From Eledone cirrhosa (lineage: Eukaryota), in NCBI GenBank assembly GCA_964016885.1, contig OZ024751.1, positions 8,060,001 to 8,124,000 of the forward strand: DNA of 64,000 bases, in the 5' to 3' direction. Positions 9,421 through 34,144 of the stretch are shown here, in pieces. The notes under the pieces were generated by a model. That model made no database searches. It had not been told where the DNA came from and saw only the letters and a list, made by a program, of their open reading frames with translations. Position 1 is the first letter of the stretch, and every line of letters starts with the position of its first letter. The translations under genes were made by a program, and so were the position numbers.

Positions 9421-12400
9421 TTGGGGCCCTTTCTGCCTGTGTGTTTGTTTGTTTATGTGTGTTCGTATACAGCGTGGTGATAATGCCACACAAGGGCCAA
9501 GTGGAACGGCGAATCCACAGATGGCTATGTAACCATACATTCGCCAATCCTCGATAAGAGTGTTTAAATATCGAACATAAACAGTTCGAATAACGGTGAA
9601 ATGGAGACTAGAACGTCATGTGACAGACTCTCACCCAACAGGTGCCCCCTGGCTCAGCAGCAGGAACCTGACTGTCAACCAAATACTGCTGATGTTGGAG
9701 GAAGAAGAAGAAGGAAAGGGGCCAGAACCAACTGGACGAAAGAATTGAATAGAACTGTTATGCAATGTTACCTGAAAAGTAACCCCAAGGAGAGGGGCTA
9801 CAGGAGACGGATGCATAACATCTGGAACGAGATTGGTCTATTTAAATTAGATGAACAAAAATTGGCCGGGCAGGCTCGGGTAATAAGAACTAATGGGTGG
9901 ATAAGCGAGCTGGAACTGGAGGAACTGAGCAGAGAGAATGGCTTGGAGATGGCGGGTGTAGTATGCCAGACAAGCGAGCCAGTGGGAAATGAAGGTGAAG
10001 AGGTCCTGAGAACGGAGGAACCCCCCGAAGCAGACAATGATCTGAATACTGAGATAAATAATACCTGGAACAGAGATACGGCCACTGAGGAGATGAATGC
10101 TGACGGGCTAGGACAAGATTCGGTTGACATCCTAAATTTAGTGGTAGATGAATTGAACAATGATAGTGGGAGACCTATGAATCTAAGATTTGTAGACAGG
10201 AAAAAGTTAAAAGAAACAACAGCTAAGTTAAACAAATTCATCCCATACCTTGAGGCGAGGAGCCTTCACCAGTGCAACAATATCCTCAAAGCAACAGCAA
10301 ATACGGTGAGGAAACTACTTGGTATAAAAGCAAGAGGAAACAACAGACAAGAAAGAGCAGAGCCGTGGTGGAAGAAACGACTGAGTGGTCAAATCGGGGA
10401 AATGAGAAATGACATAGGAAAGCTTGAGTCACTACTGAATGGGACACTAAAAAACATAGGCACTAAAAATAGACTGGAAATAAAGTACAAAACTAGGAGG
10501 AAAAGCTAAATATTATCATAGAGGAACTGAAGCAACGCGTTGTAGCAAAGAGTGCAAAAATCAGGCGATACGAGAACAGAGTCAGTCAGTACAAACAGAA
10601 CCGCATGTTCGACAACAATCAGAAGATGATGTTTGGACAGCTTGAGGGGAATGAAAGAGGCAACGACTTGATCCCTCGGGCGGAGCAAACTAAAACATTC
10701 TGGAGAGGAATATGGGAGCAGGATTTTAGACATAATGTCCAGGCAGGGTGGATTGAGACAGTACAGAGGGAGATCGGTGAGCAGGCACACCAACAAACTG
10801 ATTTGAGTATCACAGTTGAAACTCTTAAGGGGCAGGCCAAAAAACTAACCAACTGGAAATCACCAGGCCCAGATGGTGTGCAGGGGTATTGGATTAAAAA
10901 TTTAACATCCCTCTACCTGAAGCTGACGGCCATGTTCAATGACTGCTTGGTGTCGGGTGAGGTGCCAGAGTGGTTGACAAAAGGTACCACAGTTCTGATA
11001 ATGAAAGACCGAATCAAGGGTAATGATGTTACCAACTATAGACCTATCACATGTCTGTCCGTAATGTGGAAACTGCTGACGAGCATTGTGTCTGAGGAAA
11101 TCTACCATCACCTCCACACAAACAACTTGTTACCGGACGAACAGAAAGGATGCCTAAAGAAGTCACGTGGTACAAAGGACCAGTTACTTATTGATAAGAT
11201 GGTAATGGGGAATTGCAGGAGGAGACACACTGATCTTGTCATGGGATGGATAGACTACAGAAAGGCATTTGACATGGTGCCTCATTCTTGGATCACCAAA
11301 AGCCTGGAGATCTTCAGGGTGGCAGATAACATCAGACAGTTGCTGGGCAGCAGTATGGGGTCCTGGGAGACAGAGTTGACATCAACTGGAGTATCCTTGG
11401 GAGATAGCCTGTCCCCTCTGTTGTTTGTCCTTGCCCTGATGCCCTTGACCATTATGCTGCGAAAAGTGAGAGCAGGATACAAGTTGGGAACGGGTGAGCT
11501 TACCATCAATCGCCTCCTCTTCATGGACGATCTTAAGCTCTTCGGGAAAAGTGAGAAGGAGTTGGATGTGCTTGTTGACACTGTCCGTATTTTCAGCAGT
11601 GATATATGTATGCAGTTTGGTATTAGTAAATGTGGTGTCATTGTGACAAGGAGGGGTAGGTTGAGCAGAAGTAACGGGATCCAGATACCAACAGGTGAGA
11701 TGATAAAGGAAATTGACTCTGAGGAAGGATACAAGTATTTGGGCGTTCTAGAGGCTGATGGCATAAAGAACAAAAAAAGGAAGGAATTGTTAAGAACTGA
11801 ATACATTCGGAGAATAAGGAGCGTATTGAAGTCACATCTGAACAGCAGAAATGCCATAAGCGCAGTAAATTCCCGAGCTGTGTCTATTATTAGGTACAGT
11901 GCGGGAATTCTGAGTTGGAATGTTGCTGAACAAAAAGAAATGGATAGGAAGACTAGGAAGCTATTGACTATCTACAACATGTTCCACAAGAGGAGTGATG
12001 TCGATAGACTCTACCTAAGGAGATCTAAGGGTGGAAGAGGTCTTATCAGCATAGAGGACTGTGTTCAAATGGAGAAAAATAACCTATACAAATACGTGAC
12101 CTATAGTAAGGAGCCAATGCTCAAAACTGTACTGAAGGAGGGGACAGTAGGCCAGGGGATGTCCAAGGAGGAAATAACATCAAGGAGGAAGAGCAGCCTT
12201 AAGGGAAAATCCCTTCATAGTACCTTCTTTGAGAAAACTGAATATAGAGATCCACAGACATGGAACTGGTTGAGAAGAGGAGACCTGAAAAAGGCTACAG
12301 AAGGAATGCTAATGGCTGCGCAGGAGCAGTCCCTCAAAACGAAGTGGTTGAAGCACCATATTTACAAGGAGGAGGCTAGCCCACTGTGCAGGATCTGTAG

Positions 12401-13030
12401 AGAGAGGAGACTGTGGCTCAAATTGTGTCCGAGTGTAAACACCTAGCCCAGACCCACTATAAGGGCTGGAGACACGATGTGATGGGCAGGGTGATCCACT
12501 GGCACCTGTGCAAAGTAAACAATTTACCACATTCTGAGAAATGGTATGAGCATAGGCCAGAGGCGGTGATGGAGAACAATCAGGTGAAGGTGCTGTGCGA
12601 TTTTAGGATACAGACGGACAAAAAACTGGAACACAATACACCTGACCTGGTGGCTGTGGACAAAGAAAAAAGATCGTGTCTGATTGTGGATGTGGCCTGC
12701 CCTTTCGACACGAGAGTGCAAGAGAAGGAGAGGGAGAAAATTAACCGATACCAGGACCTAAAGTGGGAGGTGAAAAGGATTTGGAACTGCCATGAAGTCA
12801 AAGTGATCCCGATTGTCATAGGCGCACTGGGGCCTATCTCCAAAATTTTCCAGGGATGGTTAAAGAAAATCGGCCCCTTCACGCTTTTTGGAACGCTTCA
12901 AAAGGCATGCTTGCTTGGAACAGCAAGAACCCTCCGATACGTCCTGAATATCTGAGGCTGCAGGTAGTGGCTTGATATTCATTCCAACGGACTTTCCAGT
13001 TAACCAACATCAATGACTGAGATTCAAGGA
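9421..13030 (+). mobile_element. R4/Dong-like non-LTR retrotransposon family A, near full length, decayed
   Basis: Myb-like N-terminus (WTKELNRTVMQCYLKS..RGYRRRMHNIW), RT, CCHC, RLE, short 3' UTR ending in (AAT)n; the 5' boundary is approximate. Confidence 0.92.
9601..12955 (+). pseudogene. RT + CCHC + PD-(D/E)xK endonuclease ORF of family A (frameshifts near 10505 and 12410)
   Basis: NWKSPGPDG, NYRPITCL, WIDYRKAFDMVPH, GDSLSPLLF, LLFMDDLKLF, YKYLG, CRIC, RHD, TPDLVAVDK..IVDVACP..EKINRY. Confidence 0.93.
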
Positions 13031-13038
13031 ATAACAAC

Positions 13039-13077
<39 letters not shown>

Positions 13078-13078
<1 letters not shown>

Positions 13079-14688
13079 TTAAAATGGAGCTTGGACTGGA
13101 TAAATGCGCCAAAGCAACGTTCACCAGAGGAAAACTGCTGAAGAGTTTAGACATTAATCTTGATCGGGGGAACGTGATAAGAGAGCTTGATCAAGAAAAA
13201 ACTCACAAATATCTAGGTGTTTGTGAAGGAGACGGAATCAAGCACTCGGCAATGAGGGAAAGGATAAGGAAGGAATTTTACCGCAGAGTCAGAGCAATCT
13301 CGAAGAACGGAATTGAATGCAAGGAATAGGATCGATGCCATAAACACGCTTGCCATACCAGTAGTAACCTACAGTTACTATGTCATCAACTGGTCAAGCA
13401 CAGAGATCCGTAGGCTCGATACAAAAATCTGAAAATTCTTAACCATGCACAGAATGCATCACCCTAAGGCAGACATAGATAGAATATATCTCCCTAGGAA
13501 AGAAGGAGGATGTGGATTAATCCAGTTAGACATTGCGTTGAAAACTGCAACAATTGGATTATCCACATATCTAAGGGAATCACATGATCGGATGATCAAA
13601 CTCGTTTTGAAACACGAAAGCACCAAAAGATCATATTCCATTACAAAAGATGCACAAAGATACAGTAATGGACTACAAATTTCAGAAGTCCCACTTACTG
13701 CTGAAATGGAAAACACAGAAAAAGCAAAGCAGGTAAAAGTAACTGCAAAGAAAGAACTGCTACAGAAACTGGCTAAGAAATGGCAAGAAAAGCCTCTGTA
13801 TGGAAAATACCCAGAGCGAGCTAACAATCCTGATGTTGACAAAACTTTAAACCATCAGTGGTTGGCATCCTCTGGACTGAAATCGGAGACTGAAGGACTG
13901 ATTATATCGGCACAAGATCAGTGTCTGCCAAAAAAAAATTACCAAGCCAAGATAATAAAAAATGGGTGCAGCCCATTATGCCGTGTATGCAAAAAACAAC
14001 CAGCGACCATTGACCATATAATTTCAATGTGCAGTCCTATAGCTCCAACCGAATACCTAAACAGGCACGACAGAGCTGCACAATACATATATTGGATAAT
14101 GTGTAAGCATTTTGACCTGCCCCATTAAAAGAATTGGTGGGAGCATCAACCACCTCCCATACTTGAAAAAGATCACATCTCAATCTTGTGGAACTTTAGC
14201 ATCCAAACAGACCGAAAAATAGATGCAAATAGACCTGATATAATATTGAAGGACTTTAAAAAGAGTGTATGCCTGCTAATTGATATGTTTGTGCCAATAG
14301 AGAAGAATGTATCTATAAAAACATTTGAAAAATTGAGCAAGTATAAGGACCTGGAGATAGAAATTGGAAAAATGTCGAAATTGAGAACTAAAACAATACC
14401 AGTTGTTGTAGGTGCTCTAGGAATCATACCTGAAGGGTATAATGATTACTTATCGCAAATCCCAGGAAACCCGCGTATAGGAGAAATACAAAAGATAGTA
14501 CTAATGGGAACTGCCCATATACTAAGGAAGATCCTGTCAATATAAGTACATCACAAGTCTAAACACTAAGGATGCATGTGTTAATATGTGTGTTCTTTCT
14601 TGAACATGGCGGACCTTGTTGTCTCTTGAGGTCACTGGTTGTGACTTGGTGATAACTCGTATGAACATAAAGCAAGATAAATGCAACT

Positions 14689-14690
<2 letters not shown>
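13078..14690 (+). mobile_element. 5'-truncated R4/Dong-like family B copy 1 (stops and frameshifts)
   Basis: GLDKCA, KYLG, CRVC..HIISMC, RHD, NRPDII..LIDM..EKLSKYKDL; near-identical to 28576-30116. Confidence 0.93.
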
Positions 14691-14746
<56 letters not shown>

Positions 14747-15006
14747 TTTCTTTATTAACCACAAGGGTTTACATAAAGTAGACATTAAGGACAGTGCAGG
14801 ACAATGCAGGACGGTACAAATGGGCATTTCTGCGTGTAAAAAAACAAAAACAGAGGATGTAACAAAAATAACAATGAAAATAACAATGAAAAATTCCCCA
14901 ATAGGGGGGAGACTTCGGAGGGACATTTGTGGAGAAAGCCCAGTAAAAAGCCACAATGACCCTGACCACCAAGGCAAGTGCCCTCTCCCAGTTTTCCACC
15001 TTTAGT

Positions 15007-18000
15007 TTACAGATATATACTCAGAGTCGGCCCATTCACTCGGGCCATTCTTGCTTCTCTCACCCATCTTTCAACAAAATGCTGGGAAGAGAGCACTTCC
15101 CTCTCTACTCTGATTTTCCTTTTCAAATGAAATTTGAAAAAGTCAATCAGAGCATCACCGAAGAGGTAAGTGCTCGTCTTCAGCCCTTTCAAACGTGTCC
15201 ACCATACTATCTCTTTCGCCATGGCCACCAGACAGATAAAAACTGCCTGCCCTTCCCGGCTAAAGGAGGAGGGCGGGGCAATCCTCACGATGGACTCAGA
15301 TGATAGCTGGATCCGTCCTAAACGCGACAGCAGGTGTTCGACATAAACCCACAAGTCAGCAATTTTCGGACACTGGACGAGTGCGTGCAGGACGGTTTCG
15401 TCGCCCTGCGCGCATCTCGGACATGCCCGGCTGACGGCACCTCCATGCCTGTAGAGTTTATCCCGAACTGGCAAGGCTTCTCGGTAGCACTGCCAGGCCA
15501 GAGATTTCTGGAAGTTGTCCATAGGCCCTGGCCCGAAAGTTCTTCCGAAGAGATTGGCTAGTTGATTTTCGTCGACGCCTAGAGTTTCCCCAAGTACGTC
15601 GTCGCTCTTCCCCTCCACTAATCCTCTATAGAACGCCGAGGTGGAGTTTCCACCGATCACATTGCCCGATTGGTCGAGGGCTGTGAGCGCCTGAAGACAT
15701 TCCAGTCTCCAGGCGCTCCCTCTCGGTCTTCGCTTGACCCAGGACTGCAGCTCCGTCAAGGAAACGAGCTGGGGAAAAACGCGTCTAGCAAACGGCGACC
15801 ACACCTGATCACCGTCGAGGAAGAGGTGGAGATGTCGTAGCCTGAGCGCGTGCCTGCGCATCATCAGCCACGGCATGCCCAGCCCTCCACGTAGCGGGTG
15901 TTGACAACAGATGGACCGCCTGACCATCGGAGCACGTCCCTTCCACAAAAAGCGAAAGAGCAAACGCTCCAGCGCAGTCAGGCGAGGCTTAGGACAAGGT
16001 ACGACGGTTAGGCGGTAGCAGATGACAGACGCGATGTACGCGTTAGCCACCTCCGCTCGACCTTTCAGGGATAGCTTCCTCTCCGCCCATTTCTGGGTGA
16101 GAGAAGCCACCCTGCTCGTCACCTCGTCCCAGTTTTTGTCCGTCTGGAGGTCCGGACCGAACCAGACCCCTAGCAATTTAACCGGTCCGTCCGTCCAGCG
16201 CCCGACGACGCTGTTGGACGGCATGGACCTGCCTCTCCAGGTGCCGAGCTGCAGGCCCACTGACTTTTCCTGGTTGATCATTGCTCCTGTCACCGCTTCG
16301 TATTCTCTTAGTGTAGTGCCGATCGCCTCGATGTGTTTGGCGTTCGACACCACTACGGTGACATCGTCCGCATATGCTGACACGGATCTTCCGCATCCTA
16401 GTTCGCGCGGGACTCCCCTCAACGTCTCCAGTTTGTGCAGTAATGGCTCGAGAGTCAATACGTACAAGAGGGACGAGAGGGGACATCCTTGGCGGACCGA
16501 GCGCATGATGTTGAACGGTTCCGACAGGTGACCGTTCACTCTCACCACAGAGCAGATGTCGCTGTGCATGGCAGCGATCCAGCCTCTGAAGACGGGCCCA
16601 AAGCCAGCCGCCCTCAGGACTGCCGCTAGGTAACGATGGTCGACCCTATCGAAAGCTTTCGACTGATCTAAATTGATCAAGGACCCACCCGTGCCAGGTT
16701 CCCTAGCTACCCTCTCTACGATGTATCGCATGAGGTGGAGGTTGTCGTGGATGGATCTGTCGGGAATGGCGCATGTCTGCGCCTCTCCCACCAGACCACC
16801 AACGACAAGCGCCAACCTCTTTGCTAGCACCTTGGCCAAAATCTTAAACTCTGTGTTTAGCAGAGTTATGGGCCGGAAATTGTCTATGTTATCCCCCTTG
16901 TTCGGATCCTTTCTCAGCAGTGCCACCGCTCCTCGGCTCACAGAACTGGGAATTCTCCCGTTCTGTTGCCAGTTGCAGTAGACGTCCGCCAAGAGGCCTC
17001 CGAACAAGTCTGGCATCTGTACGTAAAGTTCATAGGGCAGACCATCCAAACCAGGCGATTTACCCCTTGTGCAGCCAGTCATTGCCTCCCTTACTTCAGC
17101 GGCTGTTATCGGCTTTTCACAACACTTCGCCTCAGTGGCCGAGAGCCGCGGCAGTCCGTCGAGGTAGACACTAAAGTCCATCCCTCTACCCGGCCCCCCG
17201 CTGCCCCCGAACAGCTGAGCGAAGTGTCGCTGAAAAGCTTCACACATTTGCCCGGGATCGAGTAGCATGCGCCCGTCGTGGTCCACCAAAGACCGGATCG
17301 TGGCTTTGTTGCCACGACGCGCCTCCGCCACTCGGGCCCATTGAACGGCTTTCGTCCCCTCGTGTCTGAGAGCACGCACCCTAGCTCTGACAACGCAGCC
17401 TTCGTGCTTTGCATTGAAGAATTGGTCAAGGGCCAATTTCGCCGCAAGCACGTCGGTCGCAATGCCTTTGCTAAGCGCCTCGTCTAATTTTCTAACTAGT
17501 TCTCCCTCTGCTCTATTTTTCTCTATTGCTAAAGCCTTACTAAACCTAATCGATTCTATTCTAATCGCTCTTTTCAGAGCAAACCACCACTTGTTGTTGA
17601 CGATGGCCCCCGTCAACGCCCGCTTAACTAGTTCGCTAATCCGGTCTCTGTAGGCCTTGCGCGCTGGTAAGGACGCGTTTAGCTTCCAGTAGCCGGGTCC
17701 TCGTCTATGAAGCCTATCTAAGTCAAGCACACAGATCACGAATTTGTGGTCCGTGTAGCTGACTATCTTGAATTGTGGACAGCCTATGCTAGACCTATCT
17801 ATTTCCCTACAAAATACTCTATCTAGATATGATCTGGATGACCCTATGCGGTTTGTCCAAGTCCACATTGGCACATTCGGGAAATCCAATCGGTACCTGT
17901 CAGACAGTTCAAAACGCCTGAGCAGGTTGGTGAGGCTCTTGCACCCTCCACCCCTATCCGCTAATCCCACACAGTCCCAGCGTGCATCTAAGATCCCGTT

Positions 18001-18426
18001 CCAGTCGCCCACTAACACTAAAGAGCGCGACGTTCCAAGAAAGGTCTCCAGACGCCGGAAGAAATCAGGCCGCCCTGCTCCTGTCGGGGCATAGACGGCC
18101 ACTAGCCTGAAAGCTTGCCCGTCTCCGCTGGTCACGTCCAGCACCACCAGCTTACCCTCTGGGTCCAGGAAGATGGCCCGTATGGCGAGATCCAAACCTC
18201 TCCGAAAAAGCACAGCAACTCCTCCACCCGATCCAGGACGGCTGGGAGATGCGTACACATCGTAGCCGCCGAAGATCGGTGCGAAGGCCCGTGCTTCGGA
18301 GATTCTGGTCTCGCTGATGGCCACTACATCTATGTTTAGTGACCTGAGGTCGTTGAGCAGGTGACCCTGCTTCCATGACGACCCCAAGCCACGCGCATTT
18401 ATGCTGCCTATTCTGAGTGAGGTCAT
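15007..18426 (-). CDS. ORF2: APE endonuclease + reverse transcriptase + C-terminal CCHC finger, 1139 aa
   Basis: SINARGL, ISET, VYAP, GDWN, YLDR, TDH, GPGYWKLN, KSPGLDG, FRPITLLN, LDQSKAFDRV, VRQGCPLS, YADD, CPRC..ETVLHALVQC; uninterrupted. Confidence 0.97.
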   Translation of the reverse strand: MTSLRIGSINARGLGSSWKQGHLLNDLRSLNIDVVAISETRISEARAFAPIFGGYDVYASPSRPGSGGGVAVLFRRGLDLAIRAIFLDPEGKLVVLDVTSGDGQAFRLVAVYAPTGAGRPDFFRRLETFLGTSRSLVLVGDWNGILDARWDCVGLADRGGGCKSLTNLLRRFELSDRYRLDFPNVPMWTWTNRIGSSRSYLDRVFCREIDRSSIGCPQFKIVSYTDHKFVICVLDLDRLHRRGPGYWKLNASLPARKAYRDRISELVKRALTGAIVNNKWWFALKRAIRIESIRFSKALAIEKNRAEGELVRKLDEALSKGIATDVLAAKLALDQFFNAKHEGCVVRARVRALRHEGTKAVQWARVAEARRGNKATIRSLVDHDGRMLLDPGQMCEAFQRHFAQLFGGSGGPGRGMDFSVYLDGLPRLSATEAKCCEKPITAAEVREAMTGCTRGKSPGLDGLPYELYVQMPDLFGGLLADVYCNWQQNGRIPSSVSRGAVALLRKDPNKGDNIDNFRPITLLNTEFKILAKVLAKRLALVVGGLVGEAQTCAIPDRSIHDNLHLMRYIVERVAREPGTGGSLINLDQSKAFDRVDHRYLAAVLRAAGFGPVFRGWIAAMHSDICSVVRVNGHLSEPFNIMRSVRQGCPLSSLLYVLTLEPLLHKLETLRGVPRELGCGRSVSAYADDVTVVVSNAKHIEAIGTTLREYEAVTGAMINQEKSVGLQLGTWRGRSMPSNSVVGRWTDGPVKLLGVWFGPDLQTDKNWDEVTSRVASLTQKWAERKLSLKGRAEVANAYIASVICYRLTVVPCPKPRLTALERLLFRFLWKGRAPMVRRSICCQHPLRGGLGMPWLMMRRHALRLRHLHLFLDGDQVWSPFARRVFPQLVSLTELQSWVKRRPRGSAWRLECLQALTALDQSGNVIGGNSTSAFYRGLVEGKSDDVLGETLGVDENQLANLFGRTFGPGPMDNFQKSLAWQCYREALPVRDKLYRHGGAVSRACPRCAQGDETVLHALVQCPKIADLWVYVEHLLSRLGRIQLSSESIVRIAPPSSFSREGQAVFICLVAMAKEIVWWTRLKGLKTSTYLFGDALIDFFKFHLKRKIRVEREVLSSQHFVERWVREARMARVNGPTLSIYL

Positions 18427-18461
18427 GTTTAAAATAGAGTGGAAAAGATGGGAAAGACCAC

Positions 18462-20561
18462 TTACCGTATTTTTGGTAGAGGAGGGATGGTTTTTACATC
18501 CCTTTTCACTTGATCGTCTGGTGAAGGGACCGTTGAATCGTCCCTTCGGCTGGTCGTCGGCTCTTCTAAGAGAATGTCTGAATATACTCTTCGATTAATG
18601 GTTCCTCCTAGGTCCCTGAAATCACCAACTGCGTTGGGGAATTTCGTTTTAATGTTTGTGTATTGTTTCTGTGCTATTTTTAGCAGTCTTATGTTAGTTG
18701 GCGTTTTGATTGGTGCTGGTATTATGTAGTCCTGTTGTGAAATGTCTGTGTGTTCAATTATGTAAGTCATTAGTTTCTTGTTGTGTGTGTTTATTGCCGT
18801 GCATTTGTTTTTCTGGGGGTGGGGTGTGGTTCTGCTATTTTCTTGTCGTTGTTGCTGGGTGTGTGTGTTTTGTTGTTGTGTTTGCGATGTTGGTGCTTGT
18901 GGTGGTGGTGTTGAAGGTGTTGTTGGCGGTGGGGTTGTCGCCGGTGGTGATGGTGGTGCTGGTGTGGGTGGTGATGGTGTTGGTGGTGTTGCTGCTGTGG
19001 GTCTCTTTGCAGTAGACTTTACCCTTTTCTCATTTCTTTCCTCCCTTTTCAAAGGCGACGATGCGCTGCTTCTGCGTTTGTGCCTTCTTGAGACCTTTTG
19101 CCATCCCTCTCCCACCTCACACTCCATGTCTGATTCTGTAAGGTCGGGGAGGGGTACCAGCTCCACTCTTTCACTTGTTGTTGTTGGTGATGTTTGCACT
19201 GGAGTCTCTGTTGCAGCTGCATTTGGTATTGCTGTTGTTGTTGTTAATATTTCCACTGCTGCTGCTGTCTTTGATTTCCGTGGAGTGGGTATGGGTGCCA
19301 CGGACCTATCGTTCCTGGTTGCCGCTTGTCCTGTTGCTGGTAGCCGTGGAACCGGATTCGGGAGGAGGGGGGTTTTCTCCTTTCTCAGGGTCTTCTCGTT
19401 GCAGAAGGCCCTGAGGTGAGTCTTCGATCCACAGCGAAAGCATTTCGGGCGTTTGCCCTCAACACTTATGGGCAGTTGAGTGCCGTTATCGAAGTCTATC
19501 ACATCCGGGATAGCTTCGATGCACTCCTGGTTGGTTTGGATTAGCATCTCAATGGAGGAGCCGACCCAATCTTCTCTTACTTTTTTCTGTACTTGCAGTA
19601 CAGTTGTTTTGTCCTCGATTCCGACGAGGACAGACGCGGCCAGCCAAGAAGGGGTCATTCCGGGGGGGACGTGGGTCAGTTTGACCCTCACAATTTTTTG
19701 CCCGCAGTAGGAGGGCACCAACACCATTTCCTCGCTCCTTAGGGTCACTACTGATTGGGCCTTTGCCTCCTGGGGTGTGGCAAAAAGTACGTCTACGGTG
19801 GCGTATTTTTTGCCTCGGGTGATGTGCGTTTTCCTCTGCCACACAGACCCCAAGGCTTTTTGTATTTGGGCCTCTGTGGCTCTTTCCACCCTACGGGATT
19901 TTGTACTTACTGTACGGTACGTGACCGTACAGTGCTCTTGGGTTTCGAAAAAATTTTTCGCTGCCTTGCAGATTGCTCGGTGTCCGTTCTTTGTCACCAT
20001 CTTCTTCGCTTCCTCTAATTCCTCATTTGTTATGAGGATTGTTTCCAGGTTTTTCGCAATACCTGCAAATGAGATTGGTTTTTCTCTGCTGTTGTTGTTG
20101 TCGTCAGAGCTGCTGGTACTTTTGTTGTTGCTGCAGGTACTACGACTACTGCCTCCGCCGCTGTTGCTGTGGTTGTTGTTGGTGTTGCTGCTGCTAATGC
20201 TGTTGTTGTTTATGCTGCTGGTGATGCTGTTGCGGCTGCTACTGTTGTTTTCATTGTCACTGTTGCTGTTGTTATTACGGCTGCTACTGCTATTATTCCT
20301 GACGTCAGACGAATGAACTGGGTTTTCGTATTTCCCGCACACCTGTTTCGTCGCTGTCGTCGTCGTCGTGGAGAAACCTTGCACGCTTTGCACGAGACTT
20401 TTCTTTTCTTTCGTCGCTTGCGAAAGAGAAGGTAGGGAGAGAGACACATTTAAAGAAGGGAGGGAGAGAGACAATCTTCTCTCTCCTGTAGTGATGATTG
20501 AGGAAGAAGAAGACGGAATGAGTGGGAGTGACGTATGAAATTTTTTTTTTTTGGTAGCCAT
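18462..20561 (-). CDS. ORF1 (gag-like, ~699 aa) with single CCHC zinc knuckle and Ser/Asn- and Pro/Thr-rich linkers
   Basis: ATG at 20561 (MATKKKK) after an A-run; SFAGIAK; CFRCGSKTHLRAFC; open frame directly upstream of ORF2. Confidence 0.88.
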   Translation of the reverse strand: MATKKKKFHTSLPLIPSSSSSIITTGERRLSLSLPSLNVSLSLPSLSQATKEKKSLVQSVQGFSTTTTTATKQVCGKYENPVHSSDVRNNSSSSRNNNSNSDNENNSSSRNSITSSINNNSISSSNTNNNHSNSGGGSSRSTCSNNKSTSSSDDNNNSREKPISFAGIAKNLETILITNEELEEAKKMVTKNGHRAICKAAKNFFETQEHCTVTYRTVSTKSRRVERATEAQIQKALGSVWQRKTHITRGKKYATVDVLFATPQEAKAQSVVTLRSEEMVLVPSYCGQKIVRVKLTHVPPGMTPSWLAASVLVGIEDKTTVLQVQKKVREDWVGSSIEMLIQTNQECIEAIPDVIDFDNGTQLPISVEGKRPKCFRCGSKTHLRAFCNEKTLRKEKTPLLPNPVPRLPATGQAATRNDRSVAPIPTPRKSKTAAAVEILTTTTAIPNAAATETPVQTSPTTTSERVELVPLPDLTESDMECEVGEGWQKVSRRHKRRSSASSPLKREERNEKRVKSTAKRPTAATPPTPSPPTPAPPSPPATTPPPTTPSTPPPQAPTSQTQQQNTHTQQQRQENSRTTPHPQKNKCTAINTHNKKLMTYIIEHTDISQQDYIIPAPIKTPTNIRLLKIAQKQYTNIKTKFPNAVGDFRDLGGTINRRVYSDILLEEPTTSRRDDSTVPSPDDQVKRDVKTIPPLPKIR

Positions 20562-21017
20562 GTTTTTTTGTTTAAAATGAAATTTTGGGTACAAAACCCC
20601 AATAACTGGTTATTTAACCCCGAAGGGCCAAATAACGGACAGAAAGACCCCTCTCACGAGGAGGAGGGTGTCTTTATCAACAATTTGGTTCAAGTTTTAA
20701 ACAATTTACAATTGTTTTAACGGTTAAAAATTACTATACCTTACAGAGCCGAGCCTCCGTCAACCATGGCATTCAATAATAATAATAATAATAATAATGT
20801 TTTCTTTATTAACCACAAGGGTTTACATAAAGTAGACATTAAGGACAGTACAGGGCATTTCTGTGTGTAAAAAACAGAGGATGAAATAAAATAACAAAGA
20901 AAAATTCCACAATAGGGGGGAGACTTCCGAGGGACATTTGTGTAGAAAGCCCATTAAAAGACCACAGTGACCCTGACCACCAGGGCTACTGCCCTCTCCC
21001 AGTTTTCCACCCTTAAT

Positions 21018-24000
21018 TTACTGACACATACTCAGAGTAGGCCCATTCATTCGGGCCATACTTGCTTCTCTCACCCATCTTTCAACAAAATGGTGGGAAG
21101 AGAGCACTTCCCTCTCTACCCTGATTTTCCTTTTCAAATGAAATTTGAAAAAGTTAATCAGGGCATCACCGAAGAGGTAAGTGCTCGTCTTCAGCCCTTT
21201 CAAACGTGTCCACCATACTATCTCTTTCGCCATGGCCACCAGACAGATAAAAACTGCCTGCCCTTCCCGGCTAAAGGAATGGGGCGGGGCAATCCTCACG
21301 ATGGACTCAGCTGATAGCTGGATCCGTCCTACACGTGACAGCAGGTGTTCGACATAAACCCACAAGTCAGCAATGCTCGAACACTGGACGAGTGCGTGCA
21401 GGACGGTTTCGTCGCCCTGCGCGCATCTCGGACATGCCCGAATGACGGCACCTCCATGCCAGTAGAGTTTATCCCGAACTGGCAAAGCTCCCCGGTAGCA
21501 CAGCCAGGCCAGGGATTTCTGGAAGTTGTCCATAGGCCCCGGCCCGAAAGTCCTTCCGAAGAGATTGGCTAGTTGATTTTCGTCGACGCCTAGAGTTTCT
21601 CCAAGTACGTCGTCGCTCTTCCCCTCCACTAATCCCCTATAGAACGCCAAGGTGGAGTTTCCACCGATCACATTGCCCGATTGGTCGAGGCCTGTGTGCG
21701 CCTGAAGACATTCCAGTCTCCAAGCGCTCCCTCTCGGTATTCGCTTGATCCAGGACTGCAGCTCCGTCAAGGAGACGAGCTGGGGAAAAACGTGTCTAGC
21801 AAACGGCGACCACACCTGATCACCGTCGAGGAAGAGGTGGAGATGTCGTAGCCTGAGCGCGTGTCTGCGCATCATCAGCCACGGCACGCCCAGCCCTACA
21901 CGTAGCGGGTGTTGACAGCAGATGGACCGCCTGACCATCGGACGCGTCCCTTCCACAAGAAGCGAAAGAGTAAACGCTCCAGCGCCGACAGGCGGGGCTT
22001 AGGACAAGGTACGACGGTCAGGCGGTAGTAGATGACGGACGCGATGTACGCGTTAGCCACCTCCGCTCGACCTTTCAGGGATAGCTTCCTCTCGGCACAT
22101 TTCTGGGTGAGAGAAGCCACCCTGCTCGTCACCTCGTCCCAGTTTTGTCCGTCTGGAGGTCTGGACCGAACCAGACCCCTAGCAATTTAACCGGTCCGTC
22201 CGTCCAGTGCCCGACGACGCTGTTGGACGGCATGGACCTGCCTCTCCAGGTGCCGAGCTGCAGGCCCACTGACTTTTCCTGGTTGATCATTGCTCCTGTC
22301 ACAGCTTCGTATTCTCTTAGTGTAGTGCCGATCGCCTCGATGTGTTTGGCGTTCGACACCACTACGGTGACATCGTCGGCATATGCTGACACGAATCTTC
22401 CGCATCCTAGTTCGCGCGGGACCCCCCTCAACGTCTCCAGTTTGTGAAGTAATGGCTCGAGAGTCAATACGTACAATAGGGACGAGAGGGGACATCCTTG
22501 GCGGACCGAGCGCATGATGTTGAACGGTTCCGAAAGGTGACCGTTCACTCTCACCACAGAAGTCGCTGTGCATGGCAGGGATCCAGCCTCTGAAGACGGG
22601 ACCAAAGCCAGCCGCCCTCAGGACTGCCGCTAGGTAACGATGGTCGACCCTATCGAAGGCTTTCGACTGATCTAAATTGATCAAAGACCCACCCGTGCCA
22701 GGTTTCCAAGCTACCCTCTCTACGATGTATCGCATGAGGTGGAGGTTGTCGTGGATGGATCTGTCGGGAATGGCGCATGTCTGTGCCTCTCCAACCAGAC
22801 CACCAACGACAAGCTCCAACCTCTTTGCTAGCACCTTGGCCAAAATCTTGAACTCTGTGTTTAGCAGAGTTATGGGCCTAAAATTATCTATGTTATCCCC
22901 CTTGTTCGGATCCTTTCTCAGCAGCACCACCGCTCCTCGGCTCACAGAGCTGGGAATTCTCCCGTTCTGTTGCCAGTTGCAGTAGACGTCCGCCAAAAGG
23001 CCTCCGAATACGTCTGGCATTTGTACGTAAAGTTCATAGGGCAGACCATCCAAACCAGGCGATTTACCCCTTGTGCAACTAGTCATTGCATCCCGTACTT
23101 CAGCGGTTGTTATCTGCTTTTCGCAACACTCCGCCTCAGTGGCCGAAAGCCGCGGCAGTCCGTCGAGGTAGACACTAAAGTCCATCCCTCGATCCGGCCC
23201 GCCACTGCCCCCCAAAATAGTTGAGCGAAGTGTCGCTGAAAAGCTTCACACATTTGCCCGGGATCGAGTGGCATGCGCCCGTCGTGGTCCACCAAAGACC
23301 GGATCGTGGCTGTGTTGCCACGACGCGCCTCCGCCACTCGGCCCATTGAACAGCTTTCGTCCCCTCGTGTCTGAGAGCACGCACCCTAGCTCTGACAACG
23401 CAGCCTTCGTGCTTTGCATTGAATAATTGGTCAGGGGCCAATTTCGCCGCAAGTACGTCGGTCGCGATGCCTTTGCTAAGCGCCTCATCTAATTTTCTAA
23501 CTAATTCCTCCTCTGCTCTATTTTTCTCTATTGCTAAAGTCTTACTAAACCTAATGGACTCTATTCTAATTGCTGTTTTCAGAGCAAACCACCACTTGTT
23601 GTTGACGATGGCCCCCGCCAACGCCCGCTTAACTAGTTCGCTAATCCGGTCTCTGTAGGCATTGTGCGCTGGTAAGGACGCGTTTAGCTTCCAGTAGCCG
23701 GGTCCTCGTCTATGAAGCCTATCTAAGTCAAGCACACAGATCACGAATTTGTGGTCCGTGTAGCTGACTATCTTGAATTGTGGACAGCCTATGCTAGACC
23801 TATCTATTTCCCTACAAAATACTCTATTTAGATATGATCTGGATGACCCTATGCGATTTGTCCAAGTCCACATTGGTACATTCGGGAAATCCATTCGGTA
23901 CCTGTCAGACAGTTCAAAACGTCTGAGCAGGTTGGTGAGACTCTTGCACCCTCCTTCCCTATCCACTAATCCCACACAATCCCAGCGTGCATCTAAGATC

Positions 24001-24430
24001 CCGTTCCAGTCGCCCACTAACACTAAAGAGCGGGACGTTCCAAGAAAGGTCTCCAGAGGCCGGAAGAGATCAGGCTGCCCTGCTCCTGTCGGGGCATAGA
24101 CGGCCACTAACCTGAAAGCTTGCCCGTCTCCGCTAGTCACGTCCAGCACCACCAACTTACCTTCTGGGTCCAGGAAGATGGCCCGTATGGCAAGATCCAA
24201 ACCTCTCCGAAAAAGCACAGCAACTCCTCCCCCGATCCCGGACGGCTGGGAGATGCGTACACATCGTAGCCGCCGAAGATCTGTGCGAAAGCCTGTGCTT
24301 CGGAGATTCTGGTCTCGCTGATGGCCACTACATCTATGTTTAGTGACCTGAGGTCGTTGAGCAGGTGGCCCTGATTCCATGACGACCCCAAGCCACGCGC
24401 ATTTATTCTGCCTATTCTGAGTGAGGTCAT
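21018..24430 (-). pseudogene. ORF2 (APE + RT) of Tx1 copy 2, about six frameshifts
   Basis: Overlapping ORF pieces 24137-24430, 23175-24380, 23110-23346, 22187-23215, 22129-22605, 21896-22132 and 21018-21956 reconstruct the copy-1 ORF2. Confidence 0.95.
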
Positions 24431-24465
24431 GTTTAAAATAGAGTGGAAAAGATGGGAAAGACCAC

Positions 24466-26472
24466 TTACCTTACTTCTCGTAGAGGAAGGTAGGTTTTTC
24501 CATCCTTTTCACTGCTTGTGGCCTCCTCAGGATGGATGTCCTTATAAATCCTCATGGAGAGTGCTTGTCGGAAGTCTCCGATGTCTTTGGGGAATTTTTT
24601 TTTTAGTGTCATGTACGTTTTCTGTGTGATGCGAGTGATTTGTATGTGTGGAGGTGGTGTGAATTTTGGGGTTGTTGTGTAGTCTTTTTCTGTGATGCTG
24701 GTGTTGTGTTGGATGTAGTGTAATAATTGCTTGTTGTTCAAATTTAATGCTGTGTAGTGTGTATCGTTTTGGTTGTTTTGTTTTGTTTGCGTTTGTTGTG
24801 GGTTTGTTTCTGTTACGCATTTTGGTGACTTTTGTGGTGTAGGTGATGGTGGTGTTGGGGTTAATGATGGTGATGGTGTTGGTGTTTGGGTTGATGGGGT
24901 TGGTGATGCTGGTGTGGATGGTGGCATATCTGTCCTAACTTTTTTGTTTCTTAATTTATTTGTTTCCCTCTGTATTTTGTTTTTGGAGGGGGAAGGAAGA
25001 GAATTTTTTCTTTTTTAGTTTCTTTTTTTTTCCGGATATCGTTTCCCACTCCTCGTTGTAACAATCTGTCTCCAGTTGTGATAGGCCGTGGAGTGGAAAA
25101 TCCTCCACAGGCGTTAGTTTTGGTTGTGGCGTGGTGGATGGTGTAGGCGCTGGTGCTAGTTCTGAAGCCTTGGGTGGTGGTGGTGTTGGTTTTGCTGGTG
25201 GTGGTGTTTGTGTTGGTTTTGCTACTGTTGCTGCGGTTGTTGCTGTTATAGTTGCTTCTGTTGTTACTTCTACAGTTGTTGCTGCCATCTCTGCTAGTGG
25301 TGGTGTTAATGGTTGTGTCACTGGGGTGGGTAGGAGAGGTGGCCTCAACCTTTTAGCCTGAGGGCAGAAAGCCCTTAGGTGGGTTCCATCACCACAAACG
25401 ACACACCTAGGTCTTCTGCCCTCGACAATTACCGTGAGGTGGCTGCCGTCAGTGAGGTCTATTACCTCTGGGATCTCTTCAATGCTTTTTTGGTCCGCTT
25501 GGATCAGGAGCTCCATCCCAGATCCGGACCAGTTCTCCTGCTTTTCTTTTGCTATTGCTATTATTTTTGTGTTGGCTTCGATGTCGGCGAGGACGGCCGC
25601 CATTAGCCAGGGAATTTCGATGGCCGGTGGAACGTGGGTCACCCTGATCGTTACGAGTCTCTGGCCACAATAGCTTGGGACGAGTGTGAAGTCGTCACTT
25701 CTTAATGGGGCCATGGAGTGTTCTCTAGCCTCCTCTGGTGTTTCAAAGAACACGTCCACGGTTCCATACTTCTGCCCACGTCTGATGTGGGTTTTTCTTG
25801 CCCACACATGTCCCAAATCTTTTTGGATTTGAAACTCGTATGCCCGTTCCACTCGGCGCGATTTTACATTTATTGTTCGATACGACACAGTGCATAAGCG
25901 CCGATGCTCCATTTTATTAGGTGGGTGGGTGGGGGTGTGGTGAGGCTGACCCTGTACCCATCTTTCTTTACCATTTGTTTGGCATTTTCTAAATCCTCCT
26001 GAGTTACCGTAAATGCTTCGAACTGTTTTGCTACTCTGGCAAAACTGAGGGTGGTTTTTATAATGTCATTGGTGTTGTTGTTGCTATCGTTATTTGTGTT
26101 AATATTAATTTTAGTTTCAGTTGTGTTGGTGGTGACGTCAGTCGTCTTTGGTGGGGAAGAGTCCATTTTGCTTGATTTCATTTCGACATCACGAGTTAAT
26201 TTATTTTTTTCTTCTTTTGTTTCTGTTGTCGCGGTGGTGGTGGGGGTGGTGGTTGTCGCGGTGGTGGTGGTGGTGGTGGAGGCTTTAACACCTGCAGTCA
26301 ATGGTAATGGCGGGAAATGAATGTCTGCCTGAGACAAATTTAAAATATTGCTACTGTTTAAATTTTTTGTAGTGTTGGCAAACGTAGTAACATTTACAAT
26401 GGTGGTGTCGGTGTGAGGTGTTAATTTGTGAGAAAGGCTTTCAGCTGCTTGGTGCAGTGGTGAATTAGCCAT
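24466..26472 (-). pseudogene. ORF1 of Tx1 copy 2, frameshifted
   Basis: MANSPL.., SFARVAK, CTVSYRT..SRRVERA, LVPSYCGQ, CVVCGDGTHLRAFC, KKFPKDIGDFR; homologous to but strongly diverged from copy-1 ORF1. Confidence 0.88.
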
Positions 26473-26684
26473 TTTTTTTCAAAGAAATGTTTTGATAATC
26501 ATAAAAGTTTAAATTTTGGGCATAAGGCCCCAATCTTTTTGGGTGTCCTTTTCGGAAAACAATGTATGTGCGCTTATAAACAGTTAACAATGAAATTCTC
26601 CATAAATGACAATTTTTAACAAACGGAAATAACAAACCTTTGCGAAGCTCCCGTTGATACGATTTACTACGTAGGTCGCCAATC

Positions 26685-26779: not shown

Positions 26780-27310
26780 TGGCACCTGCGCAAAGTAAAC
26801 AGTTTACCACATTCTGAGAAATGGTATGAGCATAGGCCAGAGGCGGTGATGGAGAACGATCAGGTGAAGGTGCTGTGGGATTTTAGGATACAGACAGACA
26901 AGAAACTGGAACACAATAGACCTGACCTGGTGGTTGTGGACAAAGAAAAAAGATCGTGTCTGATTGTGGATGTGGCCTGCCCATTCGACACGAGAGTGCA
27001 AGAGAAGGAGAGGGAGAAAATTAACCGATACCAAGACTTAAAGTGGGAGGTAAAAAGGATTTGGAACTGCCATGAAGTCAAAGTGATCCCGATTGTCATA
27101 GGCGCACTGGGGGCTATCTCCAAAAGTTTCCAGGGATGGTTAAAGATAATCGGCCCCTTCACGCTTTTTGGAACCCTTCAAAAGGCATGCTTGCTGGGAA
27201 CAGCAAGAACCCTCCGATACGTCCTGAATATCTGAGGCTGCAGGTAGTGGCTTGATATTCATTCCAACGGAGTTTCCAGTTAAACAACATCAATGACTGA
27301 GATTCAAGGA
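26780..27310 (+). mobile_element. 5'-truncated R4/Dong-like family A (RLE domain + 3' UTR)
   Basis: Near-identical to 12500-13030; WDFRIQTD..NRPDLVVVDK. Confidence 0.95.
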
Positions 27311-27327
27311 ATAATAATAATAATAAT

Positions 27328-27399
<72 letters not shown>

Positions 27400-27402
<3 letters not shown>

Positions 27403-30114
27403 CTTAGAAAATTGAAAAAAAAGTACTGTATAAAATCAACATGTGACATAGACATGCTGATAGAAATAATCAAGCAAAAATTGTCGGCCAAAGCTGCTCG
27501 TATAAAGCGCTTTGAAAAACGATCTAGATTCTATAAGGAGAATAATATGTTCAAAAACAACCAAAGAAACTTCTACAGAAAAATTGGTAAGTCAACAATA
27601 ACTGCTAAATCAATACCACCCAAGGAGGAAGTGCAAGAATTCTGGGAAAAGATCTGGGCCGAAGAAAAAGTTCATAACATACATGCCCCATGGATAGACC
27701 GACAAATGAAAGATACAGCTCACCTTGAGGAACAAATATGGGAAAATATAACAGTTGAACAGTTGCGCTTGGCTCTAAGAAAAACCAGCAAATGGAAATC
27801 CCCAGGAAAAGACAAAATACAAAACTTTTGGATAAATGCCTTCACAGAGTCTCGTGAGCTGTTAGCCCAACTTTACAATGGAATAGTTAAGGAGCCAGAA
27901 ATTATACCATCATGGCTAGTTAACAGCATTACATTCCTGCTTCCGAAGAATGATGAGACAAACAATCCCAAAAATTACAGACCGGTAACTTGCTTGACCA
28001 CAATGTATAAAATTTTAACATCAGTCCTAACTGAATACACATATGTCCACCTGATAACAAATGACCTATTTCCCATTGAGCAGAAAGGGTGTAAACGAGG
28101 CTCATATGGCTGTAAGTATCAGCTTCTGGTTAACAAAATGATACTGGAAGATTGTCATAATAGACACAAAAATCTATCGATTGCTTGGATAGATTATAAA
28201 AAAGCATTCGATAGTTTGCTACACAGATGGATTGAAAAATGTTTAGAGATTTTCAAAATATCCCCCGTTGTCAGGAGGTTTTTGTCATTCAGTATGAAGA
28301 CATGGAAAACGACACTCCTTTTGAATAGTGAAATAAAATCACTGGAAGCTGGAGAAGTTAATATTAATTGTGGAATTGTTCAGGGTGACTCTTTATCACC
28401 GCTTTTATTCTGCATCGCACTTATACCATTAAGTAAAATGCTCAATGAAACAAAACATGGATATAAAGTCTATGACAAAACCATTAATCACCTGTTCTAC
28501 ATGGATGACCTGAAACTATTTGCAAAAAATGATGAACAAGGGCTATTATCCACTGTGGAGCAGTTCAGTGATGACATTAAAATGGAGTTTGGACTAGATA
28601 AATGCGCCAAAGCAACGTTCACCAGAGGAAAGCTGCTGAAGATTTCAGACATTAATCTTGATCGGGGGAACGTGATAAGAGAACTTGATCAAGAAAAAAA
28701 CTTACAAATATCTAGGTGTTTGTGAAGGAGACGGAATCAAGCACTCGACAATGAGGGAAAGGATAAGGAAGGAATGTTACCGCAGAGTAAGAGCAATCTT
28801 AAGAACGGAATTGAATGCAAGCAATAGGATCGATGCCATAAACACGCTTGCCATACCAGTAGTAACCTACAGTTACAATGTCATCAACTGGTCAAGCACA
28901 GAGATCCGTAGGCTCGATACAAAAATTCAAAAATTCTTAACCATGCACAGAATGCATCACCCTAAGGCAGATATAGATAGAATATATATCCCTAGGAAAG
29001 AAGGAGGACGTGGGTTAACCCAGTTAGACATTGCGTTGAAAACTGCGACAATTGGATTATCTACATATCTGAGAGAATCACATGATTGGATGATCAAACT
29101 TGTTTTGAAACACGAAAGCATCAAAAGATCATATTCCATTACAAAAGATGCACAAAGATACAGTAATGGACTACACATTTCAGAAGTCCCATTTACTGCT
29201 GAAATGGAAAACACAGAAAAAGCAAAGCAGGTAAAAGTAACTGCAAAGAAAGAACTGCTACAGAAACTGGCTAAGAAATGGCAAGAAAAGCCTCTGTATG
29301 GAAAATACCCAGAGCGAGCTAACAATCCTGATGTTGACAAAACTTTAACCCATCAGTGGTTGGCATCCTCTGGACTGAAATCGGAGACTGAAGGACTGAT
29401 TATATCAGCACAAGATCAGTGTCTGCCAACAAAAAATTACCAAGCCAACATAATAAAAAATGGATGCAGCCCATTATGCCGTGTATGCAAAAAACAACCA
29501 GAGACCATTGACCATATAATTTCAATGTGCAGTCCTATAGCTCCAACCGAATACCTAAACAAGCATGACAGAGCTGCACAATACATACATTGGATAATGT
29601 GTAAGCATTTTGACCTGCCCCATCAAAAGAATTGGTGGGAGCATCAACCACCTCCCATACTTGAAAAAGATCACATCTCAATCTTGTGGAACGTATGCCT
29701 GCTAATTGATATGTCTGTTCCAATAGACAAGAATGTATCTATAAAAACATTTGAAAAATTGAGCAAGTATAAGGACCTGGAGATAGAAATTGGAAAAATA
29801 TGGAAATTGAGAACTAAAACAATACCAGTGGTTGTAGGCGCTCTGGGAATGATACCTAAGGGGTCTATTGATTACTTATTCCAAATCCCAGGAAACCCGC
29901 GTATAGGAGAAATTCAAAAGATAGTACTAATGGGAACTGCCCATATACTAAGGAAGATTCTGTCAATATAAGTACATCACAAGTCTAAACACTAAAGATG
30001 CATGTGTGAGTATGTATGTTCTCTCTTGAACATGGCGGACCTTGTTGTCTCCTGAGGTCACTGGTTGTGACTTGGTGATAACTCGTATGAACATAAAGCA
30101 AGATAAATGCAACT

Positions 30115-30116
<2 letters not shown>
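27400..30116 (+). mobile_element. 5'-truncated R4/Dong-like family B copy 2 (RT to RLE; one frameshift near 28700, 72-nt deletion at 29692)
   Basis: KWKSPGKD, NYRPVTCL, WIDYKKAFDS, GIVQGDSLSPLLF, HLFYMDDLKLF, YKYLG, CRVC. Confidence 0.95.
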
Positions 30117-30134
<18 letters not shown>

Positions 30135-30147
<13 letters not shown>

Positions 30148-32611: not shown

Positions 32612-33275
32612 TAATTAATACATGCAATTATATATGTATATACTCTTATAATACGAGTGTGTATATATTGTATATAAGCATATATGGTCGAGGGTATGTT
32701 ATATATGTATATCGATGAATGTTCATATGTAAATATTTATATATATATATATGTATATAAAGACATATATATATATATAAACGGAAAAAATGAAACGAAA
32801 TTTCATTTCGCACACTTAATACGGCTGTTACTTAAATATAAGTACGTATACGTACATATATATATATGTATACAGACGTACAGTAGTATGTATATATATA
32901 TACATACATGCACACATATATATATATATGTACGTATGGATTCACCAAACATTTATTATAATTCTCGGTGTGTTTGTAAACAAACATCCCGTATTATAAT
33001 AACTGTTTGGTGAATCCATATATGTGTGCATGTATGTATATATACATACTACTGTACGTCTGTATACATATATGTATGTACGTATACATACTTATATTTA
33101 AGTAACAGCCGTACAAAGTGTTGGAAATGAAATTTCGTTTCATTTTTTCCGTTTATCGTTTTCCGTGAAACCGGCCGATTAACCCACTCGATATGCAAAT
33201 TGGGCTACTAAGCCGTTAATATGCATAAGGTAAGTATATACTTTCGGACGTTCATCTATCTGGCAGGAAGGTATA

Positions 33276-33316
33276 CGTTGCTGACGATAGCTAACAAGCT
33301 TGAAACTAGTACAGCG
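33276..33316 (+). ncRNA. Minimal type I hammerhead ribozyme
   Basis: CGUUG-CUGACGA-u-AGC uaacaa GCU-u-GAA-ACUAGU-A/CAGCG: 5-bp stem I, canonical core, palindromic stem III. Confidence 0.88.
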
Positions 33317-33706: not shown

Positions 33707-33747
33707 CGTTGCTGACTGTAGCTAACACGCTTGAAACTAGTACATCG
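33707..33747 (+). ncRNA. Second-unit hammerhead with mutated core
   Basis: CGUUG-CUGACUG-uagcuaacacgcuu-GAA-ACUAGU-A/CAUCG; G8 and A9 altered. Confidence 0.65.
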
Positions 33748-33975: not shown

Positions 33976-34015
<40 letters not shown>

Positions 34016-34055
34016 GCCCATATATATATATATATATAAATACATATATATATAT

Positions 34056-34144
<89 letters not shown>

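What the first reader, a model, noticed from the sequence alone, without database searches (positions are those of the whole stretch)
18404..18470. Cryptic intron over the Tx1 ORF1 stop codon would fuse ORF1 to ORF2 in frame
Seen: on the - strand ORF1 ends ..ATA CG|GTAAGT (copy 1) and ..GTA AG|GTAAGT (copy 2, 24469), a consensus 5' splice site containing the TAA stop. A pyrimidine tract follows, then the ORF2 ATG and two CAGs (18413, 18404; 24417, 24408). Removing 53 or 62 nt joins a phase-2 donor to a phase-2 acceptor, giving ORF1-R-IGSINARG or ORF1-R-INARG and keeping the APE N-terminal motif. Unspliced, the ORFs are 35 nt apart and out of frame. The interval is identical in both copies while sequence just upstream of the donor diverges. 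Established: L1/Tx1 ORF2 is normally made by re-initiation or frameshifting from unspliced RNA. Inference: this lineage may make an ORF1-ORF2 fusion by regulated splicing while transposing the unspliced RNA. Caveats: the intron is short, the pyrimidine tract is not adjacent to the AG, and conservation may just mark a recombination breakpoint.
Basis: partly seen in the sequence, partly recalled or inferred. Interest (0 to 1): 0.78.

Follow-up and report, generated by a model that had tools for sequence, protein, structure and literature searches.

The report
Conserved splice donor in a retrotransposon
A family of jumping genes keeps a near-perfect splice-donor signal at the end of its first gene across very different subfamilies, but the reading frame is not kept and no spliced copy was found in the genome, so the signal likely binds the cell's U1 splicing particle to protect the uncut RNA rather than fusing the two genes.

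Summary
The element is a young, very high-copy L1/Tx1-type LINE in (ATT)n repeats. The donor is more than chance: G|GTRAGT lies at the ORF1 end in families whose synonymous sites are only 41-61% identical, in 164 of 195 junctions picked from the ORF2 side, and one family has the other canonical form, GTGAGT. The fusion frame is not conserved: donor phase is 2, 1 or 0 by family, and three families have no usable in-frame AG. The ORF2 ATG, which splicing would delete, is kept in 189 of 195. No genomic copy lacks the intron (0 against 4,527 intact). The identity of the two window copies reflects a chimeric copy 2. No run on record as RNA was available, so splicing itself is untested. Best reading: ORF2 is translated from its own ATG on unspliced RNA, and the motif is a selected U1-binding site, likely guarding the full-length transcript as in plant Ty1/Copia. 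Fusion survives only as a possible minor isoform (about 0.15).

The parts
14690..20773 (-). Copy 1, full-length L1/Tx1-type LINE (family A here), flanked by (ATT)n on both sides
   Evidence: 40 of 40 scored genomic matches to its junction are 100% identical
18462..20561 (-). ORF1, 699 aa, with a CCHC knuckle; no Pfam hit
18460..18468 (-). Donor-like motif (exon end 18466, GT 18465-18464) holding the ORF1 stop; 7 of 11 matches to this genome's U1 5' end
18427..18461 (-). 35-nt pyrimidine-rich inter-ORF spacer (34 nt in family B)
18404..18415 (-). Three YAG candidates inside the first ORF2 codons: 53 nt (in frame), 58 nt (out), 62 nt (in)
15007..18426 (-). ORF2, 1139 aa: APE endonuclease, reverse transcriptase, zf-RVT; own ATG with A at -3
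18648..18795 (-). The only two internal poly(A)-signal hexamers on the sense strand of copy 1, 330 and 188 nt upstream of the donor
14830..14852 (-). T-rich tract ending in CAG in the 3' UTR, the best acceptor-like site downstream of the donor in families A, B and D; not kept in C, F, G, H
14751..14756 (-). Terminal AATAAA, followed by the (ATT)n tail
20774..26680 (-). Copy 2, degenerate, in tandem upstream: family-B ORF1 with a family-A spacer
24408..24470 (-). Copy 2 junction: donor, stop, spacer, ATG and CAGs

Best explanation
The donor motif at the ORF1 stop is conserved across this LINE lineage while its reading phase is not, so it is likely a U1 snRNP binding site on the unspliced two-ORF RNA, with ORF2 likely translated from its own ATG by re-initiation. 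Shown: motif conservation, complementarity to this genome's U1, free phase, kept ORF2 ATG, no intron-less genomic copy found. Inferred: that U1 binds there in vivo; that its job is to hold off premature 3'-end formation at poly(A) signals in the A-rich end of ORF1 so that full-length RNA is made; that any splicing from it is minor.
For: Strict G|GTRAGT in 164 of 195 junctions found from the ORF2 side, against 0-1 in five shifted windows. Kept in three deep clades with 41-61% identity at four-fold sites; rough post-hoc chance 5e-4 from 7 of 38 invariant four-fold sites. A protein-constrained look-alike (G-K codons near ORF2 codon 90) keeps GGTAAG in only 7 of 14 representatives. Family I has GTGAGT with a TGA stop, the other canonical donor. 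U1 genes here start with the complementary sequence. Phase 2, 1 or 0 by family. ORF2 ATG in 189 of 195 and A at -3 in 14 of 14 representatives. 0 intron-less copies against 4,527 intact, where human L1 shows about 2% spliced copies (PMC5860796, passages). Re-initiation across a spacer is the proposed L1 route (PMC5972666, PMC2241872, passages). U1 at a conserved donor suppresses premature termination in Ty1/Copia EVD (PMC5580714, passages).
Against: No direct evidence for U1 binding or for premature termination. Poly(A) hexamers lie within 500 nt upstream of the donor in 14 of 17 representatives, but counts in the upstream 1 kb (0-4) match the shuffle expectation (1.4-2.5), and C (two copies) and K have none. 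In EVD the suppressed sites lie downstream of the donor; here none lies within 700 nt downstream, so the model needs suppression of upstream signals, which I recall for HIV-1 but did not look up. A pyrimidine-rich spacer after a strong donor is also what a real short intron looks like, and an in-frame YAG lies 52-67 nt downstream in A, B, C, C2, D, G4, G', H and J.
Confidence: 0.45

Rival explanations
1. The donor is spliced to a distant acceptor, removing ORF2 and making an ORF1-only message, as copia elements do for Gag. This needs no fixed phase.
For: The donor always lies just before the ORF1 stop, so ORF1 stays whole in any phase. In A, B and D the best acceptor-like site downstream is in the 3' UTR; for copy 1 it would give a 718-aa product. 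Precedent: PMC5580714 (passages).
Against: That acceptor is absent in C, F, G and H; sites shared by all families lie in coding sequence and score modestly on an ad hoc score. No genomic copy joins the ORF1 exon end to it (0 of 9 hits; 0 of 15 hits), though such RNA would need help in trans and may not transpose.
Confidence: 0.2
2. One reading: a 52-67-nt intron is removed in a fraction of transcripts and yields a functional ORF1-ORF2 fusion of about 1,830 aa.
For: Open fusion in copy 1. An in-frame YAG at 52-67 nt in 9 family types; phase-1 G' and G4 have a phase-1 TAG and phase-2 H has a phase-2 TAG. Introns of 35-60 nt exist in other invertebrates (PMC4675715, passages).
Against: F and K have no in-frame AG nearby, G3 only one at 30 nt; in C, C2, D and J the first YAG is out of frame. 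The ORF2 ATG would be intronic yet is kept. 0 intron-less copies against 4,527 (A/B), 1,038 (G4/G'/J) and 606 (H) intact ones; with cis preference (recalled for L1) a spliced RNA that made the enzyme should be copied.
Confidence: 0.15
3. Coincidence inherited by descent: an Arg codon, a stop and two bases happen to spell a donor and have not yet decayed.
For: Only three deep clades; the chance estimate is post hoc and uses ORF2 sites as a null for a junction that recombines. Absent at the ORF1 stop in 38 of 38 distant L1/Tx1-like elements with an upstream ORF (read by eye).
Against: Survives frame changes that move the stop, so it is not held by protein; flanks are conserved in only 3-6 of 8 lineages at most positions while five motif positions are 8 of 8; the codon-90 control decays.
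Confidence: 0.12
4. The motif is a translation signal that helps ribosomes re-initiate at ORF2, at a fixed 37-53 nt from its ATG.
For: Narrow motif-to-ATG distance; TURBS elements act by rRNA pairing near stop-restart sites (PMC5972666, passages).
Against: TURBS motifs lie upstream of the stop, whereas this one overlaps it; the variation seen (A/G at +3) is that of a donor. Pairing with this genome's 18S rRNA was not tested.
Confidence: 0.08

Closest known systems
Ty1/Copia EVD donor and U1 (PMC5580714, passages seen)
   Same: Conserved U1 site at the end of the structural-protein ORF of a retroelement; unspliced full-length RNA is the transposition template; U1 has a role without splicing.
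   Different: LTR element with one Gag-Pol frame, a conserved acceptor and a downstream termination site; splicing creates the stop. Here it is a LINE with two ORFs, the stop lies in or just after the donor, and no conserved acceptor was found.
Mammalian L1 bicistronic RNA, termination/re-initiation (PMC5972666, PMC2241872, passages seen)
   Same: Two ORFs, short spacer, ORF2 with its own ATG, APE-RT-zinc finger ORF2.
   Different: No conserved donor over the ORF1 stop is described in the passages read; spacer here is 34-50 nt against about 60.
Human L1 SpIREs (PMC5860796, passages seen)
   Same: Splice sites inside a LINE RNA.
   Different: SpIRE donors are in the 5' UTR and about 2% of full-length copies are spliced; here the donor is at the ORF1 end and no spliced copy was found.
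SART1 overlapping stop-start coupling (PMC5972666, passage seen)
   Same: ORF2 of a repeat-targeting non-LTR element made by translational coupling.
   Different: Stop and start overlap there; here they are separated by a spacer in any of three frames.

Membership tests
L1/Tx1-type non-LTR retrotransposon | ORF2 with N-terminal APE, RT and C-terminal zinc finger | tested here: met
   Pfam Exo_endo_phos, RVT_1, zf-RVT; best solved relative L1 ORF2p E 3e-52 against R2 1e-21
L1/Tx1-type non-LTR retrotransposon | Separate ORF1 with RNA-binding/CCHC region | tested here: met
   CCHC motif in the translation; Atlas look-alikes are CCHC and ZCCHC3-type RNA-binding clusters at 0.90-0.93; no Pfam hit
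Tx1 clade (as opposed to L1 clade) | Placement inside Tx1 in an RT tree | not tested
L1-Tx1 families are listed as recently active in Octopus vulgaris (PMC13282606, passages)
Tx1 clade (as opposed to L1 clade) | Insertion into a specific repeat | tested here: met
   Both window copies and most fetched copies abut (ATT)n; H-type ends abut (ATCT)n. Seen in the loci, not counted genome-wide
Functional spliceosomal intron fusing ORF1 and ORF2 | 5' site complementary to U1 | tested here: met
   6-9 of 11 matches in 14 of 14 representatives
Functional spliceosomal intron fusing ORF1 and ORF2 | Donor and acceptor phase conserved | tested here: not met
   Phases 2, 1, 0; no usable in-frame AG in F, G3, K
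Functional spliceosomal intron fusing ORF1 and ORF2 | Length within the host's intron range | tested here: inconclusive
   Short introns exist in other invertebrates; the host's range was not measured
Functional spliceosomal intron fusing ORF1 and ORF2 | Spliced RNA observed | not testable with these tools
   No run on record as RNA; contigs show presence, not absence
SpIRE-like processed copies | Genomic copies precisely lacking the intron | tested here: not met
   0 against 4,527, 1,038 and 606 intact copies
Copia-type subgenomic structural-protein mRNA | Conserved acceptor paired with the donor | tested here: not met
   3' UTR CAG only in A, B, D
Copia-type subgenomic structural-protein mRNA | U1-dependent control of premature termination | not testable with these tools
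   Needs 3'-end mapping; hexamer counts not enriched

The most novel reading that the evidence does not exclude
This LINE lineage uses a regulated 52-67-nt intron over the ORF1 stop as a switch: retained, it gives the bicistronic RNA that transposes; removed, it deletes the ORF2 ATG and yields an ORF1-ORF2 fusion of about 1,830 aa in the phase-compatible families, a route to a LINE polyprotein not found in my literature searches.
Probability: 0.13. Interest if true: 0.8.

Novelty: new variant of a known kind. Interest (0 to 1): 0.45.

Why it matters
How two-ORF LINEs balance ORF1 and ORF2 and keep their A-rich RNA full length is poorly known outside mammals. A U1 site held at the ORF1 stop across a large, active lineage suggests that a LINE has reached the same solution as plant Ty1/Copia elements, and gives one 7-nt target that existing cephalopod RNA data and a reporter can test. 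If the fusion occurs, it would be a new way for a LINE to express its enzyme. As it stands the result is a conserved signal with no RNA evidence.

Tried and rejected
RNA: no RNA holder listed; this is no evidence either way. Five of the six listed runs, all of unrecorded kind, were laid as contigs. Contigs of X1, X3 and X6 bridge the junction unspliced; no joint at the donor was listed, but contigs drop rare forms and the joint table was cut (506 rows not shown), so splicing is neither shown nor excluded. A further spacer type seen as a loose end in X2 was not found in the genome by exact pattern and is not counted. Frameshift or read-through as the ORF2 route: rejected, since the ORF1-to-ORF2 offset differs between families A and B. 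Earlier findings: nothing. Literature: nine answered searches on the topic or its parts listed no paper on a spliced ORF1-ORF2 fusion or a donor at a LINE ORF1 stop; I saw listings and passages only, and most subscription papers are not in the library.

Full report
What is there. The window holds two tandem minus-strand LINEs between (ATT)n tracts. Copy 1 is intact: ORF1 20561-18462 (699 aa, CCHC knuckle) and ORF2 18426-15007 (1139 aa; APE, RT, zf-RVT), closest to L1 ORF2p among solved structures. Copy 2 is broken in both ORFs. The genome has about 3.0 Gb; an octopus is my inference from composition and from a hit in an Octopus sinensis protein. The family is large and young: 24,713 first-look candidates for the ORF2 start and 150 of 150 scored matches identical.

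Observation. All coordinates, the 35-nt spacing and the two in-frame joins are correct. The identity of the two copies is not independent evidence: 29 of 30 loci with the copy-2 ORF1 have a different, 34-nt spacer, and the exception is copy 2. Copy 2 is best read as a recombinant.

The donor is conserved. Searching from the ORF2 side gave further families, named here C, C2, D, F, G (G3, G4), G', H, I, J and K. Their ORF2 starts fall into three deep clades with 41-61% identity at four-fold sites. Of 210 loci picked without reference to the donor, 195 had a locatable ORF2 start; 164 of these have strict G|GTRAGT 20-65 nt upstream and 183 a donor-like variant (family D has GTAATT), against 0, 0, 1, 0 and 0 in five shifted windows; the sixth shift hits a G-K codon pair near ORF2 codon 90 in 94 loci. 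These loci are copies of a few families, not independent draws, and some places may occur twice. That G-K look-alike is a useful control: it keeps GGTAAG in 7 of 14 representatives and is lost in G', J, H, H2, I, K and the F copy, while the motif at the ORF1 end stays. Anchored on the motif, positions -1, +1, +2, +4 and +6 are identical in 8 of 8 lineages and the flanks mostly in 3-6 (anchoring makes part of this circular). With 7 of 38 four-fold sites invariant as the null, five positions free of the stop give about 5e-4 (post hoc). Family I carries GTGAGT with a TGA stop (one copy). This genome's U1 genes begin with the complementary sequence, matched at 6-9 of 11 positions. In distant L1/Tx1-like elements from metagenomes the motif is absent at the upstream-ORF stop in 38 of 38 with such an ORF (58 of 80 loci examined, read by eye), so it belongs to this lineage.

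The fusion frame is not conserved. Phases, assigned by hand from translations, are 2 in A, B, D, H, I, K; 1 in C, C2, F, G4, G', J; 0 in G3. An in-frame YAG lies 52-67 nt downstream in A, B, C, C2, D, G4, G', H and J, which keeps the fusion possible there. But the first ORF2 codons supply AGs in two phases by default; in C, C2, D and J the first YAG is out of frame; F and K have none in frame and G3 only one at 30 nt. I and K rest on single copies. The ORF2 ATG, which would be intronic, is present in 189 of 195 with A at -3 in 14 of 14 representatives; that this marks a used start rests on the Kozak rule, recalled.

No processed copies. A gapped pattern finds 0 A/B copies without the intron and 4,527 with it. 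For G4/G'/J and H, 13 and 13 copies deviate after the exon end, none at an acceptor, against 1,038 and 606 intact. In human L1, 131 of 6,609 full-length copies are spliced (PMC5860796, passages); that rate would predict about 90 here. So the RNA that transposes is unspliced. This does not exclude a spliced RNA that is translated but not copied.

A distant acceptor? Copy 1 has a T-rich tract and CAG at 14830 in the 3' UTR, the top-scoring acceptor-like site in A, B and D on an ad hoc score; use of it would give a 718-aa ORF1 product. C and F have CAC there, G and H lack it, and no genomic copy joins the ORF1 end to it.

RNA. No holder was on record as RNA. Contigs of three runs of unknown kind bridge the junction unspliced; this shows that form exists in those runs and nothing about splicing.

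Mechanism. A motif held at the nucleotide level, indifferent to phase, without a shared acceptor, on an RNA that transposes unspliced and keeps the ORF2 start, fits U1 binding better than a fusion intron. Re-initiation across a spacer is the proposed route for L1 ORF2, and rat L1 antibodies showed no fusion protein (PMC5972666, PMC2241872, passages). In Arabidopsis Ty1/Copia, U1 at a conserved donor both allows a Gag mRNA and blocks premature termination of the full-length RNA (PMC5580714, passages). In copy 1 the only internal poly(A) hexamers lie 330 and 188 nt upstream of the donor; across 17 representatives 14 have one within 500 nt, but the counts match composition, so this step is inference only. 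I give 0.45 to U1 binding on unspliced RNA, 0.2 to an ORF1-only spliced message, 0.15 to a minor functional fusion, 0.12 to coincidence and 0.08 to a translation signal.

Novelty. The listed searches showed no report of this motif or of a spliced ORF1-ORF2 fusion in a LINE; I saw listings and passages, no whole paper and no supplements, and the repeat libraries in the supplement of PMC13282606 (passages only) may hold these families. The element type is known; the conserved donor at the ORF1 stop is a new variant of a known kind of retroelement RNA control. Interest 0.45.

Noticed in passing
window 18510 (copy 1 ORF1); L151-L180, L192-L221: Family A ORF1 is a chimera: F-type ORF1 up to exactly the base where F has its donor, joined out of register to the last ~43 nt of a B-type ORF1, with one extra G in the join. 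A splice between tandem elements or a 2-nt microhomology switch both fit; suggestive only.
   Followed up: partly
G000 C2:110322084-110352779; C1:423394021-423418069: Head-to-tail arrays of near-identical copies at about 6.05-kb (family A) and 5.84-kb (family J) spacing, as expected if the element targets the repeat that forms its own tail.
   Followed up: no
L334: H-type elements end in (ATCT)n rather than (ATT)n, a change of target repeat within the lineage.
   Followed up: no
window 9568-14200 and 26780-30145: Plus-strand RT elements without APE and fragments of them share the same (AAT)n tracts; two stretches are repeated on either side of the Tx1 pair. Dong/R4-like is my recalled label.
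   Followed up: no
P0001 residues 41-101; window 18156: An Octopus sinensis tectonic-3-like model contains 61 aa of this lineage's endonuclease, ending at the donor-like G-K site near ORF2 codon 90: exonisation or a gene-model error.
   Followed up: partly
window 37963-39458 (+), related stretch 50584-51245: Two overlapping ORFs with RT-like motifs and no Pfam hit at E 0.01; possibly Penelope-like (recalled).
   Followed up: no
G000 C2:180973544-180995099; C1128: U1 snRNA genes in a tandem array with a unit of about 2,674 bp.
   Followed up: no
L252-L326: Many distant L1/Tx1-like elements also have a T-rich stretch right after the ORF1 stop, so the pyrimidine-rich spacer may be general and not intron-specific (by eye).
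   Followed up: no
window 32700-34096: A 431-bp tandem duplication and nested inverted repeats among (TA)n tracts.
   Followed up: no
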